Assembly: GCA_963754945.1 (NCBI GenBank)
Contig: CAVWIG010000014.1
Location: 37,648-101,647, forward strand
DNA length: 64,000 nucleotides
DNA from: Methanotrichaceae archaeon
GTDB taxonomy: Archaea > Halobacteriota > Methanosarcinia > Methanotrichales > Methanotrichaceae
Reading direction: 5' to 3'
The translations under genes and the position numbers were made by a program. Of the stretch, positions 54,044 through 57,440 are shown piece after piece. The notes beneath the pieces were generated by a model, which saw only the letters and a list, made by a program, of their open reading frames with translations, was not told where the DNA came from and made no database searches. The first letter of the stretch is position 1, and every line of letters starts with the position of its first letter.

Positions 54044-54849
54044 GAGCGAGAGGATTGCGGAAGTGATTGATGGAACTTTTGGTCAGGGAGATGATGGCAA
54101 GCCATGTGCAGTCGGGATATCGCGTTGCAGAGGACTAATATAAAGCTAAACAGTTATTCATGAATCCCCCAGCCTTGTAAAATGATCACCAGTGAGTTTA
54201 GAGAATAATTTCTCATATGCCTGTGGATAACTGATTCTGCAACTATGATTACGTGCGGAGGATGAGAACCCTCACACTTTCCCATTTTGCTTATGCTTGT
54301 AATCAGGTGCTTATCGAACAACCGAAAAACCTAATACGCAAAGAGGAATGATTATACTATGAAAAAATTGCCAAGAATAATAGCGAATGCCTTGCTTGTG
54401 AGCGTTCTTGTTCTTCTGCTTTTGGAAACTGTGAGTGGTGCACCGTACTGCTTGCTTCGAGCACCATATAATCCGCCACAAGGCAACTGCTTCCAGTTCT
54501 ATTTAGCAGACACGACGACGTCACCAGCAAGGGCAACTGCCGCTGGAGGCGTCTGTGCCGTCACGCCTCTAGCCGCCCGTGAAGGATGGGAACCTGATCC
54601 CACATTCCCTGGGCCACTTTCAACTTGGGCCGCTGGGGATGCGGCGATGGGTGTAGTGAGCCCGTATTTCGGCGATGCCTATGGATGCCAAGCGTCAGGC
54701 GGTAATAGTACGGGGGTCGGAAATGGTGGGGGAGTCAGTAGTAGTGGAGGGGCTGCACAGTACTGCCTGCTCCGAGCGCCTTATAATCCGCCACAAGACA
54801 ACTGCTATCAGTTGCCATGAAAACGCCCTAAATAAAAGGATCAGCGGCC

Positions 54850-56100
54850 TTAACCGCCTTCCCTGTATTCGTTTCTCCTCACCTCATATCCTGCTTTGAT
54901 GATAGTTTTGATCATTTCATCGAGGCTCATCGATGTAGTTGAATGTACACTGGAATGCTTAACACATCTTGGTTTGCTGAGCAGGTCATCTTGATAGAGC
55001 TCTTGACTGATCAGCAAATGATAAAGTATGCAGAGCACTTTTCTTGCAAGAGCAACGACACCAATTTTTGTACCTCTTCTTGCCTTGATCCTCAAGAAGA
55101 ACTTCTTGAGTTTCGAGTTTCGCTTTGATCGAATAATGGCATGTGCCACCTCAATAATCATCCCTCTTATGTGAGGTGAACCATGCTTTGTGATATGGCC
55201 GTTTATCTGCTTGCCTGCCGATTGATAAACAGATGGCACAAGTCCGCAATAAGCAGCAAGCTTATTCGGGGAACTGAAGTCTCTGAAATCTCCGACCTCT
55301 GCCAGGATAGTAGATGCAGAAACGACTCCCATTCCCGGCATGGATAAAGCGATCCTCATGTCTTCATTCCGTGAAGAGATCTGATCCGAAATCTTAGCGT
55401 CGATTTCTACAATCTGTTTGGTAATGGCATCAATCATATTCAGATGAGATCGAAGGAGAAAGATCTGTGAAGGAGATAGGTTAGCCTGGATGATTCCACG
55501 TATCTCCTCTTTAATCGCTCTTACCCTTTTCGAAGGTATGCTTTCCAATATCTTCTCCAAATCCATGCCGTTAAGAAGTCCATCGACGATATGTCTTCCT
55601 GACTTGCCAAAAACGTCAGATAGCACCGAGGAAAGCTTGATACATGCAGCCTCTAGCTCGTGAGTAACCCGATTCTTGATCTTGGTTCTTACTTTAATCA
55701 GGCTCTCTCTCGTCCTTGTAAGAGATCTCAATTCGCGGTGATCTCTGGGAAAGATTCGGGATGGAGAGATCAGATTCTTCAAACAAATCTCCGCAATCCA
55801 CTCGGAATCCAGCGCGTCTGTCTTTCTTCCTGGAATATGCTTAATCTGATAGGCATTTGCCAGAATAAAATTTACAGACCCCTCTAAGACATTGTAAATC
55901 GGAAGCCAGTAATTGCCCGTAGATTCCACAGCCACTTTATGGCAACCATTCTCCTTTAGCCAATTCTTGAACTTCAAAAGCTCTTCTAAGCTTGTTTCAA
56001 ATCGATCTTGAAGCTTCAAGCCGTCGCTGGAAAGAATAGTCGCCACAATAAACTTATTGTGTACATCAACTCCGCAAGCTATTTCTCTTTTTCCAGACAT
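54850..56100 (-). CDS. IS110-family recombinase (DEDD RuvC-like + Tnp20 domains)
   Basis: GVDVH, VESTGNYW, GRKTDALD and GLVPSVYQSAG motifs. Confidence 0.95.
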   Translation of the reverse strand: MSGKREIACGVDVHNKFIVATILSSDGLKLQDRFETSLEELLKFKNWLKENGCHKVAVESTGNYWLPIYNVLEGSVNFILANAYQIKHIPGRKTDALDSEWIAEICLKNLISPSRIFPRDHRELRSLTRTRESLIKVRTKIKNRVTHELEAACIKLSSVLSDVFGKSGRHIVDGLLNGMDLEKILESIPSKRVRAIKEEIRGIIQANLSPSQIFLLRSHLNMIDAITKQIVEIDAKISDQISSRNEDMRIALSMPGMGVVSASTILAEVGDFRDFSSPNKLAAYCGLVPSVYQSAGKQINGHITKHGSPHIRGMIIEVAHAIIRSKRNSKLKKFFLRIKARRGTKIGVVALARKVLCILYHLLISQELYQDDLLSKPRCVKHSSVHSTTSMSLDEMIKTIIKAGYEVRRNEYREGG

Positions 56101-56300
56101 TATGCCCTCGCAGTTGCGATATGGGCAGATGAGTAATCCCTGGTGGTGAATTGCCATTCGCGTTCAGCGACGCATTTGGGTGCTCAAGAAGTCTGGCTAC
56201 TTTCTATGACGGGATCCAAGTCCCGAACTAATTAGCAGCCTTCACTACCCATATCAATACTGCAATCCGCTGCAATCGTTTTCATAGTTTTGGGTGCGAA
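56101..56300 (-). ncRNA. Putative IS110 bridge RNA (ends approximate)
   Basis: Stem-internal loop-hairpin at 56195-56240 with guides matching both target halves; AUGGCAA at 56151-56157 matches the element end. Confidence 0.75.
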
Positions 56301-57440
56301 TCAGGATTCATGATTGCTTTCTATGTAGCATCCACGACAACTTCAGCAGCAAGGGCAACCGTCGTGGGTGGCGCCTGTGCTGTCACGCCTCTGGGGGCTC
56401 GTGAAGGATGGGAACCCGATGCACTCTATCCTGGACCGTTCTCAACTTTTTCCGAAGCGGATGCAGCGATGAGTAAAGTAAGCCCGTATTTCGACGATGC
56501 CTATGGATGCCATGCTACAGGCGGTAATAATTCATCCGGTAATGGTGGAAGCGGTTGTCCATCAGGCCAGACAAATTGTGGTGGAACATGCACTGATACA
56601 AGTTCCGACACACAGAACTGTGGTTATTGTGGAAACGTTTGTGGATCAGATGCTAGCTGTGTGAGCGGGAGCTGTATGAGTGTCTCATGTCCATCAGGTC
56701 AGACGAGTTGTAACGGGACGTGTATTGATACCAGTTCCGACTCAAATAACTGCGGTTATTGTGGCAACGTGTGTTCATCAGGCACTAGCTGTGTTAGTGG
56801 AACCTGTTCGGCCTCCAATGGAACCAGCGGACAAAATGCTGCAAACGGAACTTCATATCATAAAGGGTCGCTTCTTGCAGGGCCGATATCCCTTCCAGCC
56901 AATTTGTCCACATTCCAAGACGTCGTCTTCCTGGACAAGGACAAGCCTTACTTCGTAGTGGGTGAAGGGGTATGTAGCCTTTGGGACGACCACACAGACG
57001 GCGTTGACTCTGTTTTCTGCTATGCTCAATGGAGAATTGGAGATACTCCGCAGGTATGGGGGCAGCTCGAGCTATCTGACCCTTCAATTCACCTAAGCGA
57101 TCTTATAGCGCAGAATACAGGGAATCCCGCTATATACAATCCATCCCATGTTTACGAGGCAGTAGTTATCGGTGAAGGGAAAACTCTTAAAGCCAGGGTT
57201 TTCGATGGCGGAGGTTATTCGGACAACCACGGAGAGCTGAGAATCAGCGTTTACCAGGCAGTTGCGAATACTTAGGCCTCTAAAACTCGAGAGCAGGTAA
57301 TGTACAACCTGCTCGTCTTCTTCTTTTAGGTTAGGCACAGGATCTAATTTTTATAATAATTTCCTAAACCCAATATTGGACCTGGTCTTCCAGTTGGCGT
57401 GCAGCCTATCGTATTTGGTAATTGGTAAATCGTTTTTTAT

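What the first reader, a model, noticed from the sequence alone, without database searches (positions are those of the whole stretch)
54812..56320. Archaeal IS110 whose non-coding end encodes guides matching its own insertion site (bridge-RNA recombination system)
Seen: minus-strand 56240-56195 reads GGCUGCU-AAUUAGUU-CGGGA cuugga UCCCG-UCAUAGAA-AGUAGCC, a 7-bp stem, a symmetric 8+8-nt internal loop and a 5-bp hairpin. The reconstructed empty site is TATCAG-TT-CTATGT. The 5' loop strand matches TATCAGTT at 6/8 (plus one G:U), and the 3' strand is complementary to TTCTATGT at 7/8; both include the TT core. Downstream, AUGGCAA (56157-56151) is complementary to the donor end TTGCCAT at 7/7, next to a CGC/GCG hairpin; the other donor guide matches only weakly (AAUGCGU vs ATTGCTT). 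The paralogous site in repeat 1 (TTCCAG-TT-CTATTT, 54497) fits worse and is empty. Established: IS110 recombinases use bispecific bridge RNAs (IS621, CT core). Inference: a compact methanogen bridge system with a TT core, long right guides and target/donor top strands antisense to the recombinase gene; a candidate programmable recombinase.
Basis: partly seen in the sequence, partly recalled or inferred. Interest (0 to 1): 0.85.

Follow-up and report, generated by a model that had tools for sequence, protein, structure and literature searches.

The report
Methanogen IS110 element with bridge RNA
This is a recently active jumping gene in a methane-producing archaeon that appears to choose its landing sites with a self-encoded guide RNA, a mechanism already known from bacteria, so it is a real but fairly expected addition to a known class.

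Summary
Window 54814-56318 is a 1505-bp IS110-family element between two TT copies. It has three near-identical copies in this mcrA-bearing Methanotrichaceae genome. Across 36 related non-coding ends, 11 of 27 base pairs show compensatory changes. In 15 guide classes both target-loop strands track the elements' own flanks, and no permutation of 10,000 reached the observed score for either strand. The 3' donor-loop strand (AUGGCAA) tracks the element's 3' end plus core in 18 classes.

- The proposed second donor guide (AAUGCGU) is invariant scaffold.
- The 5' donor-loop strand instead copies, in the same sense, a site 22-30 nt inside the left end. This is unexplained.
- The guide order is the reverse of IS621 and matches what is reported for IS1111 seekRNAs. 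A Bacillus relative and a second methanogen family share it.

RNA ends, strand, recombinase binding and circle formation are not shown. Bridge RNAs have been predicted family-wide, so I rate this a new member of a known kind.

The parts
54812..54813 (.). Core dinucleotide TT (AA in gene sense), copy at the recombinase-3' (RE) junction
   Evidence: The same TT flanks both ends in the window copy and in the second full copy.
54814..56318 (-). IS110-family insertion sequence, 1505 bp
   Evidence: three copies at 100% identity in the own genome, one of them truncated; the flanks differ; contigs of DNA run X2 break at 54810 and 56322.
54814..54849 (-). Right end (RE), 36 nt. In gene sense it ends ...CGUUUUCAUGGC. 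A GC hairpin encloses the stop codon and is followed by a T-rich box.
   Evidence: 25 related right ends aligned.
54817..54825 (.). Subterminal inverted repeat, RE arm (ATGAAAACG on the + strand), 3 nt from the element end
   Evidence: pair I21: 9 nt, 100% complementary to 56277-56285.
54850..56100 (-). Recombinase gene: 416 aa from the conserved start MSGKREIACGVDVH..., stop included
   Evidence: PF01548 at 4.4e-26 and PF02371 at 4.5e-23. IS621 transposase 8wt6 at E 6.4e-11, with the D, E, D, D positions and the serine in YQS aligned; homologues align from this start.
56101..56318 (-). Left non-coding end (LE), 218 nt, encoding the bridge RNA
   Evidence: RNA-library contigs of three runs cover 56118-56304, with strand and ends unknown.
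56118..56128 (-). P1 closing stem, 3' strand (CUGCCCAUAUC)
   Evidence: helix 1 has 13 pairs, 6 of them with compensatory changes. pair I2.
56151..56157 (-). Donor-loop 3' strand AUGGCAA. Same sense as the element's 3' end plus core (CATGGC-AA), so it would pair with the bottom strand.
   Evidence: summed match 123 against 69.3 +/- 6.7 permuted, 0 of 10,000.
56160..56173 (-). Donor-loop central hairpin GCGUC-GCUGA-ACGC
   Evidence: helix 4: 4 pairs, invariant in 36 of 36 sequences.
56175..56183 (-). Donor-loop 5' strand GCACCCAAA. Same sense as the LE segment 56289-56297.
   Evidence: 119 against 84.6 +/- 4.8, 0 of 10,000. Function unexplained.
56195..56240 (-). Target-binding stem-loop: outer stem 56234-56240 with 56195-56201, and inner hairpin 56210-56225
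   Evidence: helices 2 and 3 are 92% paired, and 5 of their 10 pairs show compensatory changes.
56202..56209 (-). Target-loop 3' strand UCAUAGAA. Same sense as the flank next to the LE plus core.
   Evidence: all 3 of 3 copies have CATAGAA; 119 against 66.7 +/- 5.3, 0 of 10,000.
56226..56233 (-). Target-loop 5' strand AAUUAGUU. Complementary to the gene-sense top strand of core plus the flank next to the RE.
   Evidence: 6/8 in the window copy and 3/8 in the second copy; 84 against 56.3 +/- 4.7, 0 of 10,000.
56245..56255 (-). P1 closing stem, 5' strand (GAUAUGGGUAG)
56277..56285 (.). Subterminal inverted repeat, LE arm, 33 nt from the element end
   Evidence: pair I21.
56289..56297 (-). LE segment GCACCCAAA (LE +22 to +30), copied in the same sense by the donor-loop 5' strand
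56319..56320 (.). Core dinucleotide TT, copy at the LE junction

Best explanation
The element is a recently active IS110-family insertion sequence of a Methanotrichaceae methanogen. Its upstream non-coding end encodes a bridge RNA.

**RNA architecture.** The RNA core is about 150 nt and is closed by a long-range stem, P1. It carries two arms:
- a target-binding stem-loop with an 8+8 internal loop;
- a donor-binding loop built around an invariant GCGU/ACGC hairpin.

**Inferred mechanism.**
[quoted passage not shown] - The DEDD/serine recombinase then exchanges strands at the shared AA (TT on the window's + strand) core and inserts the element without a duplication beyond the core.

**Shown here.** Element ends and copies, the recombinase family, RNA structure covariation, and guide-to-flank and guide-to-end covariation.

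**Inferred by analogy with IS621, ISEc11 and ISEc21.** That the RNA is made in this orientation, that it binds the recombinase, that a circle forms, and that pairing directs recombination.
For: **Element and recombinase**
- There are three copies at 100% identity with different flanks.
- The gene is intact and carries both Pfam domains. It is homologous to the IS621 transposase, with the catalytic positions aligned.

**RNA structure**
- In 36 related non-coding ends, 96.0% of cells are paired, against 27-46% when the 3' partners are slid.
- 11 of 27 pairs have compensatory changes, and 0 of 500 shuffles reached this. RNAalifold found 10 of 24.

**Target guides**
- In 15 guide-class representatives the match of the 3' strand to the upstream junction sums to 119, against 66.7 +/- 5.3 permuted.
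- The reverse complement of the 5' strand against the downstream junction sums to 84, against 56.3 +/- 4.7.
- Both were reached in 0 of 10,000 permutations.
- Examples of concerted change are CACAAAG against CGCAAAG, AAACGGCGG against AAATTGCG, and AATGTGGGT.

**Donor guide**
- The 3' strand against the right end plus core sums to 123, against 69.3 +/- 6.7 (0 of 10,000; 18 classes).

**Independent lineages with the same logic**
- A second methanogen family, genome G152.
- A Bacillus thuringiensis plasmid element for which an empty site is available.

**Other**
- RNA-library contigs from three runs of three studies cover the non-coding end.
Against: - No experiment has been done.
- The RNA contigs cannot show strand, ends or even transcription.
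- Rfam has no matching family.
- The second full copy matches the 5' target strand at only 3/8.
- The assembly holds 131 sites that match the 3' guide 8/8. It also holds at least 92 unoccupied sites that match both guides as well as the window's site. Pairing is therefore far from predicting occupancy.
- I found no RNA segment complementary to the core plus element start, which is the canonical fourth guide. The tests were reached in 2934 of 10,000 and 8923 of 10,000 permutations.
- The guide classes are related by descent, so the permutation counts overstate independence.
Confidence: 0.87

Rival explanations
1. This is a seekRNA-type mechanism. Only the target stem-loop acts as a guide. It recognises both the new target and the target halves that flank the resident copy, as proposed for IS1111 and ISEc21. 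The 'donor loop' is scaffold or a regulatory part of the leader.
For: - The guide order is the one reported for IS1111 seekRNAs.
- Only one donor-loop strand fits the canonical rule, and no guide for the element's start was found.
- The target-loop 3' strand match runs 2-3 nt into the element: AAAG in ours and AAAC in most relatives.
Against: - The donor-loop 3' strand changes in step with the element's 3' end. The variants are GGC, GGG, GGT, AGG, GCG and GTG before AA in 18 classes, and no permutation of 10,000 reached the score.
- That concerted change is hard to explain for mere scaffold.
Confidence: 0.08
2. The non-coding end is an ordinary conserved mRNA leader. The protein chooses the target, and the loop-to-flank matches are chance or reflect an A/T-rich site preference.
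For: - Many flanks are A-rich, and the junction motif AAAC is shared by loop and element in most relatives. This raises background matches: cross-pairs average 4.3 and 3.6 nt.
- Occupied sites are not the best-matching ones.
Against: - Own-pair matches average 7.7 and 6.3 nt, against 4.3 and 3.6 for cross-pairs.
- Non-A-rich guides track their flanks, for example GTCACAG, AAACGGCGG and AATGTGGGT.
- No permutation of 10,000 reached the observed sums.
Confidence: 0.03
3. The copies are inert relics spread by duplication, so the RNA no longer functions.
For: - One copy is truncated after element position 1351.
- A decayed RNA-only relic lies on contig C7.
Against: - The two full copies are 100% identical with open 416-aa frames and unrelated flanks.
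- Environmental contigs show further flanks.
Confidence: 0.02

Closest known systems
IS621 bridge RNA system (Durrant et al. 2024, PMC11208160; structures 8wt6-8wt9)
   Same: - A DEDD plus Tnp_20 recombinase.
- An RNA encoded in the end upstream of the gene.
- Two loops, each strand reading one DNA strand around a shared core dinucleotide that is included in the pairing.
- No duplication beyond the core.
   Different: - The strand order is reversed. [quoted passage not shown] Here the 3' strand does.
- The core is AA/TT, not CT.
- The recombinase is 416 aa against 328, and only remotely similar (E 6.4e-11).
- A long P1 stem closes both arms.
- The subterminal inverted repeat is 9 nt, against the 2-3 bp reported for the IS110 group.
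- The fourth guide is not canonical.
IS1111-type seekRNAs and bridge RNAs (ISEc11, ISPa11, ISKpn4; Siddiquee et al. 2024, PMC11187229)
   Same: - The top-strand complement lies 5' of the bottom-strand match.
- Subterminal inverted repeats are present.
- Ten nucleotides separate the two CATG motifs nearest the ends once those ends are joined (GC-AA-AGCAAT). This compares with the 7+3 terminal extensions described for IS1111 (my reading).
   Different: - The RNA lies upstream of the gene, not downstream.
- The recombinase is 416 aa, against the 330-350 aa stated for IS1111.
- The best inverted-repeat arm on the left lies 33 nt inside the end, not 7.
- I did not test placement on a tree with named IS1111 proteins.
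ISEc21 (IS110-type seekRNA; same paper)
   Same: The non-coding region lies upstream, and short matches to both target strands sit in one stem-loop.
   Different: In ISEc21 the top-strand match is 3' of the bottom-strand match, which is the opposite of this element.
Bacillus thuringiensis plasmid IS110-family element (NZ_CP050184.1, WP_086411369.1). It is among the nearest bacterial relatives found, at about 40% amino-acid identity.
   Same: - Homologous ends: CAATCATGA... at the start and ...TTTTCACAGAAA at the end.
- An AA-type core.
- The 3' loop strand GUAAAAUAAAC equals the upstream flank, and the 5' strand GGCUUUUU complements the downstream flank.
- The donor strand ACAGAAAAA equals the right end plus core.
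   Different: - The covariance model built from the archaeal RNAs does not find it.
- Its right end is longer, about 170 nt.

Membership tests
IS110-family bridge-RNA system | [quoted passage not shown] | tested here: met
   E-values 4.4e-26 and 4.5e-23; alignment to IS621 shows GVD, VES, KTD, ALD and YQS opposite IGID, IEA, KTD, TVD and YES. The roles of these residues are recalled, not taken from a call.
IS110-family bridge-RNA system | A long non-coding end encoding a conserved structured RNA | tested here: met
   27 pairs, 96% paired, 11 with compensatory changes, 0 of 500 shuffles; the model matches 52 of 151 genomes of the class.
IS110-family bridge-RNA system | A target loop whose two strands pair with opposite strands of the target on either side of the core, with the core included | tested here: met
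   0 of 10,000 permutations for each strand.
IS110-family bridge-RNA system | A donor loop whose two strands pair with the two element ends around the core | tested here: inconclusive
   The 3' strand meets the rule (123 against 69.3, 0 of 10,000). The 5' strand is not complementary to the core plus element start (8923 of 10,000). Instead it copies LE +22 to +30 in the same sense (0 of 10,000).
IS110-family bridge-RNA system | The same core dinucleotide at both junctions, with scarless insertion | tested here: met
   The reading frame and the paralogous repeat support it. A weak hint comes from an RNA contig reading CAACTGCTATCAG|TTCTATG, with only 13 letters left of the joint, below the tool's 31-letter rule.
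IS110-family bridge-RNA system | The RNA is expressed and bound by the recombinase | tested here: inconclusive
   contigs of three RNA libraries cover 56118-56304. Strand, ends and transcription are not shown. Binding is not testable here.
IS110-family bridge-RNA system | A circular intermediate whose joined ends form a promoter | not tested
   No circle joint appeared in the four runs laid (table 5: none). A related element in G094 lies head to tail with a circle-like junction. The T-rich box 17-21 nt before the right end is ambiguous and could be a terminator or a TATA box.
IS621-like (IS110 group) guide topology | The 5' loop strand has the same sense as the flank next to the RNA-coding end, and the 3' strand complements the other flank | tested here: not met
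   this assignment gives 55 and 54, at or below the permutation means of 66.7 and 56.3.
IS1111 group | Subterminal inverted repeats of 11-13 bp with 7 and 3 nt extensions, non-coding region downstream of the gene, and a transposase of 330-350 aa (as stated in PMC11187229) | tested here: not met
   A 9-nt perfect repeat lies 3 nt from the right end but 33 nt from the left end. The non-coding region is upstream and the protein is 416 aa. Only the guide order fits.

The most novel reading that the evidence does not exclude
This methanogen and Firmicute clade reads its donor differently from IS621. Both donor-loop strands have the sense of the same DNA strand. One copies the right end plus core. 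The other copies a site just outside the left copy of the subterminal repeat. The two sites lie on either side of a conserved left-end palindrome.

The joined ends could therefore be recognised as a folded or cruciform strand, with the repeat forming a stem and the RNA internal loop pairing with a DNA internal loop. Alternatively, the left end could carry a mimic of the right end.

If so, this would be a third donor-recognition geometry for RNA-guided DEDD recombinases, in an archaeal host.
Probability: 0.15. Interest if true: 0.65.

Novelty: new member of a known kind. Interest (0 to 1): 0.38.

Why it matters
It gives a well-supported archaeal example of RNA-guided transposition. At least 17 naturally reprogrammed target loops occur within one family of methanogens, and the same RNA scaffold occurs in a second methanogen family with large, complete genomes.

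This is a ready comparative data set for guide rules: an AA core, guides of 8-11 nt and 7-10 nt, and tolerance of mismatches on one strand. It is also a possible starting point for a site-directed insertion tool in methanogens.

It also shows that the strand order of IS621 does not hold for all elements that encode the RNA upstream of the gene.

It does not change the picture of how such elements work, unless the odd 5' donor strand turns out to mark a different way of reading the donor.

Tried and rejected
- **Rfam.** Nothing relevant. The only match was a sub-threshold microRNA model inside the coding region, at 25 bits against a cut-off of 160.
AAUGCGU against ATTGCTT is rejected as conserved scaffold.
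- **A third single-stranded segment as the missing guide.** I tested the GAGGGUUUU-like segment 3' of the donor loop as the guide for the element's start. It fits two classes 8-9 nt but shows no family-wide signal (2934 of 10,000).
- **Empty site for the truncated copy's locus.** I searched the two sister genomes. Only the occupied, 79%-identical flank of G001 was found.
- **The archaeal RNA model on bacterial relatives.** It did not find the RNA in five bacterial relatives. I read the Bacillus one by hand instead.
- **Other copies of the Bacillus element within its own plasmid record.** Only the element itself was found.
- **Circle joints and RNA ends.** No joint was listed. Parts without cover prove nothing. 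One contig whose adaptor abuts 56118, the 3' end of P1, is a single weak hint.
- **Joined-end promoter.** The T-rich box in the right end could equally be the terminator of the recombinase gene. I make no claim.
- **A 10-nt perfect complement.** 56183-56192 complements 55101-55110 (pair I14). About one such pair is expected by chance in 1.5 kb by my estimate, so I dropped it.
- **Literature.** Searches listed no paper on a methanogen or archaeal bridge RNA.
  - The search was loose, and most of its hits were methanogen ecology papers.
The supplementary tables of PMC11208160 and the database of 10.64898/2026.10.21.760802 may already list this family.
- **What I saw of each paper.**
  - PMC11208160: passages and section 5.
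  - PMC11187229: passages.
  - 10.1101/2024.06.21.599552: passages.
  - 10.64898/2026.10.21.760802: passages and section 8.
  - PMC11208158, PMC13626964, 10.1101/2025.10.25.684509 and 10.64898/2026.08.31.748434: search listing only.

**Rows dropped before the counts**
- One search kept only loci with one tblastn segment covering query residues <=15 to >=400 at >=45% identity, which left 43 rows.
- One search then dropped L001 and L005 (duplicates of L019 and L061), L006 and L062 (no RNA scaffold) and L059 (truncated non-coding end). That left 36 elements in 17 classes, of which 15 had both flanks.
- Searches also dropped L054, which has a deletion in the target loop.
- One search used 36 of the 40 distinct RNA regions listed. 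Left out were L059, L054, L050 and one of the two L021 copies.
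Full report
**1. What is there**

Window 54814-56318 is a 1505-bp element. Its left junction reads tatcag-TT|GCCATG and its right junction reads GATTGCT|TT-ctatgt. 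The minus strand carries one long frame. From the start shared with all homologues (ATG at 56100) it encodes 416 aa with Pfam DEDD_Tnp_IS110 (4.4e-26) and Transposase_20 (4.5e-23). The nearest solved structures are the IS621 and ISCro4 transposases (E 6.4e-11 and 5.2e-09). The acidic positions and the serine in YQS stand opposite those of IS621 in the printed alignment. Which residues are catalytic is recalled, not taken from a call.

The element interrupts a secreted, cysteine-rich repeat protein with a Stig1 domain downstream. Removing the element and one TT restores the frame, in parallel with the first repeat of the same gene.

**2. Copies and host**

- The genome is 2.97 Mb in 54 contigs, 87.7% complete. 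It holds a second full copy and a third copy truncated after element position 1351, all at 100% identity, plus three diverged relatives.
- In gene sense the flanks next to the RNA-coding end are GCTACATAG-AA, GATACATAG-AA and ATGTCATAG-AA.
- The flanks at the other end are AA-CTGATAGC and AA-ACTCTCAT.
- The genome carries mcrA. Named relatives of the recombinase are Methanotrichaceae, Methanothrix or Methanosaeta assemblies.

**3. The RNA**

The same non-coding end is conserved in the order. 58 of 105 genomes have a recombinase homologue at E <= 1e-40, and 48 distinct upstream regions align well.

On 36 of them the consensus structure has four helices:
- a 13-bp closing stem, P1 (GAUAUGGGCAG with CUGCCCAUAUC);
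- the outer stem of the target arm;
- the inner stem of the target arm;
- an invariant 4-bp hairpin in the donor arm.

96.0% of cells are paired, against 27-46% when the partners are slid. 11 of 27 pairs carry compensatory changes, and 0 of 500 shuffles reached this.

A covariance model built from this alignment finds five places in the own genome: the three copies, the C15 relative and a decayed relic on C7. It matches 52 of 151 genomes of the class:
- 40 of 74 in the own family;
- 9 of 67 in a second family, all in one genus;
- 2 of 4 in a third family.

**4. Guides and targets**

Between the conserved stems the two loop strands are hypervariable. I oriented all elements by the gene. I took 12 nt of upstream flank plus 3 nt, and 12 nt from the core downstream. 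I then measured the longest exact match.

| Comparison | Own pairs | Cross-class pairs | Sum over 15 class representatives | Permuted | Permutations reaching it |
|---|---|---|---|---|---|
| 3' strand (same sense) against upstream junction | 7.7 nt (n=34) | 4.3 nt (n=544) | 119 | 66.7 +/- 5.3 | 0 of 10,000 |
| Reverse complement of 5' strand against downstream junction | 6.3 nt (n=29) | 3.6 nt (n=464) | 84 | 56.3 +/- 4.7 | 0 of 10,000 |

The opposite, IS621-like assignment gives 55 and 54.

Clear cases of concerted change:
- ACACAAAG with flank CACAAAG, against ACGCAAAG with flank CGCAAAG;
- UCCGCCGUUU with AAACGGCGG, against UCCGCAAUUU with AAATTGCG;
- ACCCACAUU with AATGTGGGT.

The classes are related to one another, so these counts overstate independence. 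However, the measure is identity between two different places in each element, which common descent alone does not produce.

**5. Donor side**

The strand 3' of the invariant hairpin copies the last nucleotides of the element plus the core in every class whose right end is known. The variants are ATGGC-AA, ATGGG-AA, ATGGT-AA, ATAGG-AA, ATGCG-AA and ATGTG-AA. The sum is 123 against 69.3 +/- 6.7 (0 of 10,000; 18 classes).

The strand 5' of the hairpin is not complementary to the core plus element start (8923 of 10,000). Instead it repeats, in the same sense, 9-10 nt located 22-33 nt inside the left end. The sum is 119 against 84.6 +/- 4.8 (0 of 10,000). That site lies just outside the left arm of a 9-nt perfect subterminal inverted repeat, whose right arm is 3 nt from the other end.

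I cannot explain this. Two ideas are in the notebook and in the novel case.

**6. Comparison with what is known**

[quoted passage not shown] The RNA is transcribed from the joined ends into the left end.
- Siddiquee et al. state that in IS1111 seekRNAs the top-strand complement comes first, and that in the IS110-type ISEc21 it comes second.
- The element here encodes the RNA upstream, like the IS110 group, but has the IS1111 order.
- This is not an archaeal peculiarity.
  - A Bacillus thuringiensis plasmid element at about 40% identity has a real empty site in a sister plasmid. It shows the same order and the same donor rule.
  - The element of the second methanogen family does too, with target ATAA-AA-ATAAG in ten copies.

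**7. Limits**

- The second full copy fits the 5' target strand poorly, at 3/8.
- The assembly holds 131 sites with 8/8 to the 3' guide. It also holds at least 92 unoccupied sites that fit both guides as well as the window's site.
- Contigs from three peat RNA libraries of three studies cover 56118-56304, but they cannot show strand, ends or transcription.
- One RNA contig reads the uninterrupted gene across the insertion point, with only 13 letters on one side.
- Other contigs show further flanks (TTCTATGACATT...; ...GATA-AGTT).
- No circle joint was listed.

**8. Verdict**

It is not surprising.
- Bridge RNAs were predicted in 85.7% of IS110 and 93.0% of IS1111 entries of ISfinder.
- A 2026 preprint models 32,190 of them with 86 covariance models.
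- 662 archaeal IS110 recombinases have been counted.

In my searches I saw no paper on a methanogen bridge RNA. Supplements that might list it were closed.

I rate it a new member of a known kind. One unexplained feature, the 5' donor strand, deserves a bench test.

Noticed in passing
L021 (G094:C139:41-3069): Two related elements lie head to tail. The right end of one meets the left end of the next as CATGGT-AA-ACGCCGCATG. This is the junction expected of an excised circle, or of an insertion into a donor junction.
   Followed up: partly
L082 (JAQVXF010000281.1, 2650 bp): A contig binned as Syntrophomonas sp. carries a 59%-identical recombinase and the same RNA scaffold (113 bits). This could be mis-binning of a Methanothrix contig or transfer between syntrophic partners.
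   Followed up: no
L003 (G000:C17:102800-104150) and L009 (G001:C3:467-669): The truncated copy and a 91%-identical decayed copy in a sister genome sit at the same locus. Their flanks are 79% alike and both read GTCATAGAA, the best match to the guide (11 of 11 in L003). This is either an old shared insertion or repeated use of a preferred site.
   Followed up: partly
window 54359-54820 and 56310-57275: The interrupted host gene encodes a signal-peptide protein with two copies of an AP/QYCLLRAPYNPPQ...GWEPD repeat and Stig1-like cysteine-rich modules. RNA-library contigs of runs X15 and X16 cover its downstream part at the highest depths in the stretch.
   Followed up: no
window 54826-54849 and related right ends: In 25 aligned right ends, the stop codon sits in or beside a GC-rich hairpin. 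A T-rich box follows, 17-21 nt before the element end. It could be the gene's terminator, an archaeal TATA box that fires across joined ends, or both.
   Followed up: partly
G000:C7:68139-68292 (L004): This is a decayed copy of the RNA region (58 bits, 76% identity to the element's left part). The target loop is still recognisable, but the match does not extend over the rest of the element.
   Followed up: no
window 56118: In RNA run X15, one 122-nt contig carries adaptor sequence directly against 56118, which is the last base of the P1 stem. This hints at a 3' end of the RNA there, but it rests on a single record.
   Followed up: no
G034:C1 (L051, L052, L054, L055, L058): Five copies of the 53%-identical element share 143 nt of upstream flank, and four of them also share their downstream flank. 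The element therefore sits inside another repeated sequence at one fixed site.
   Followed up: no
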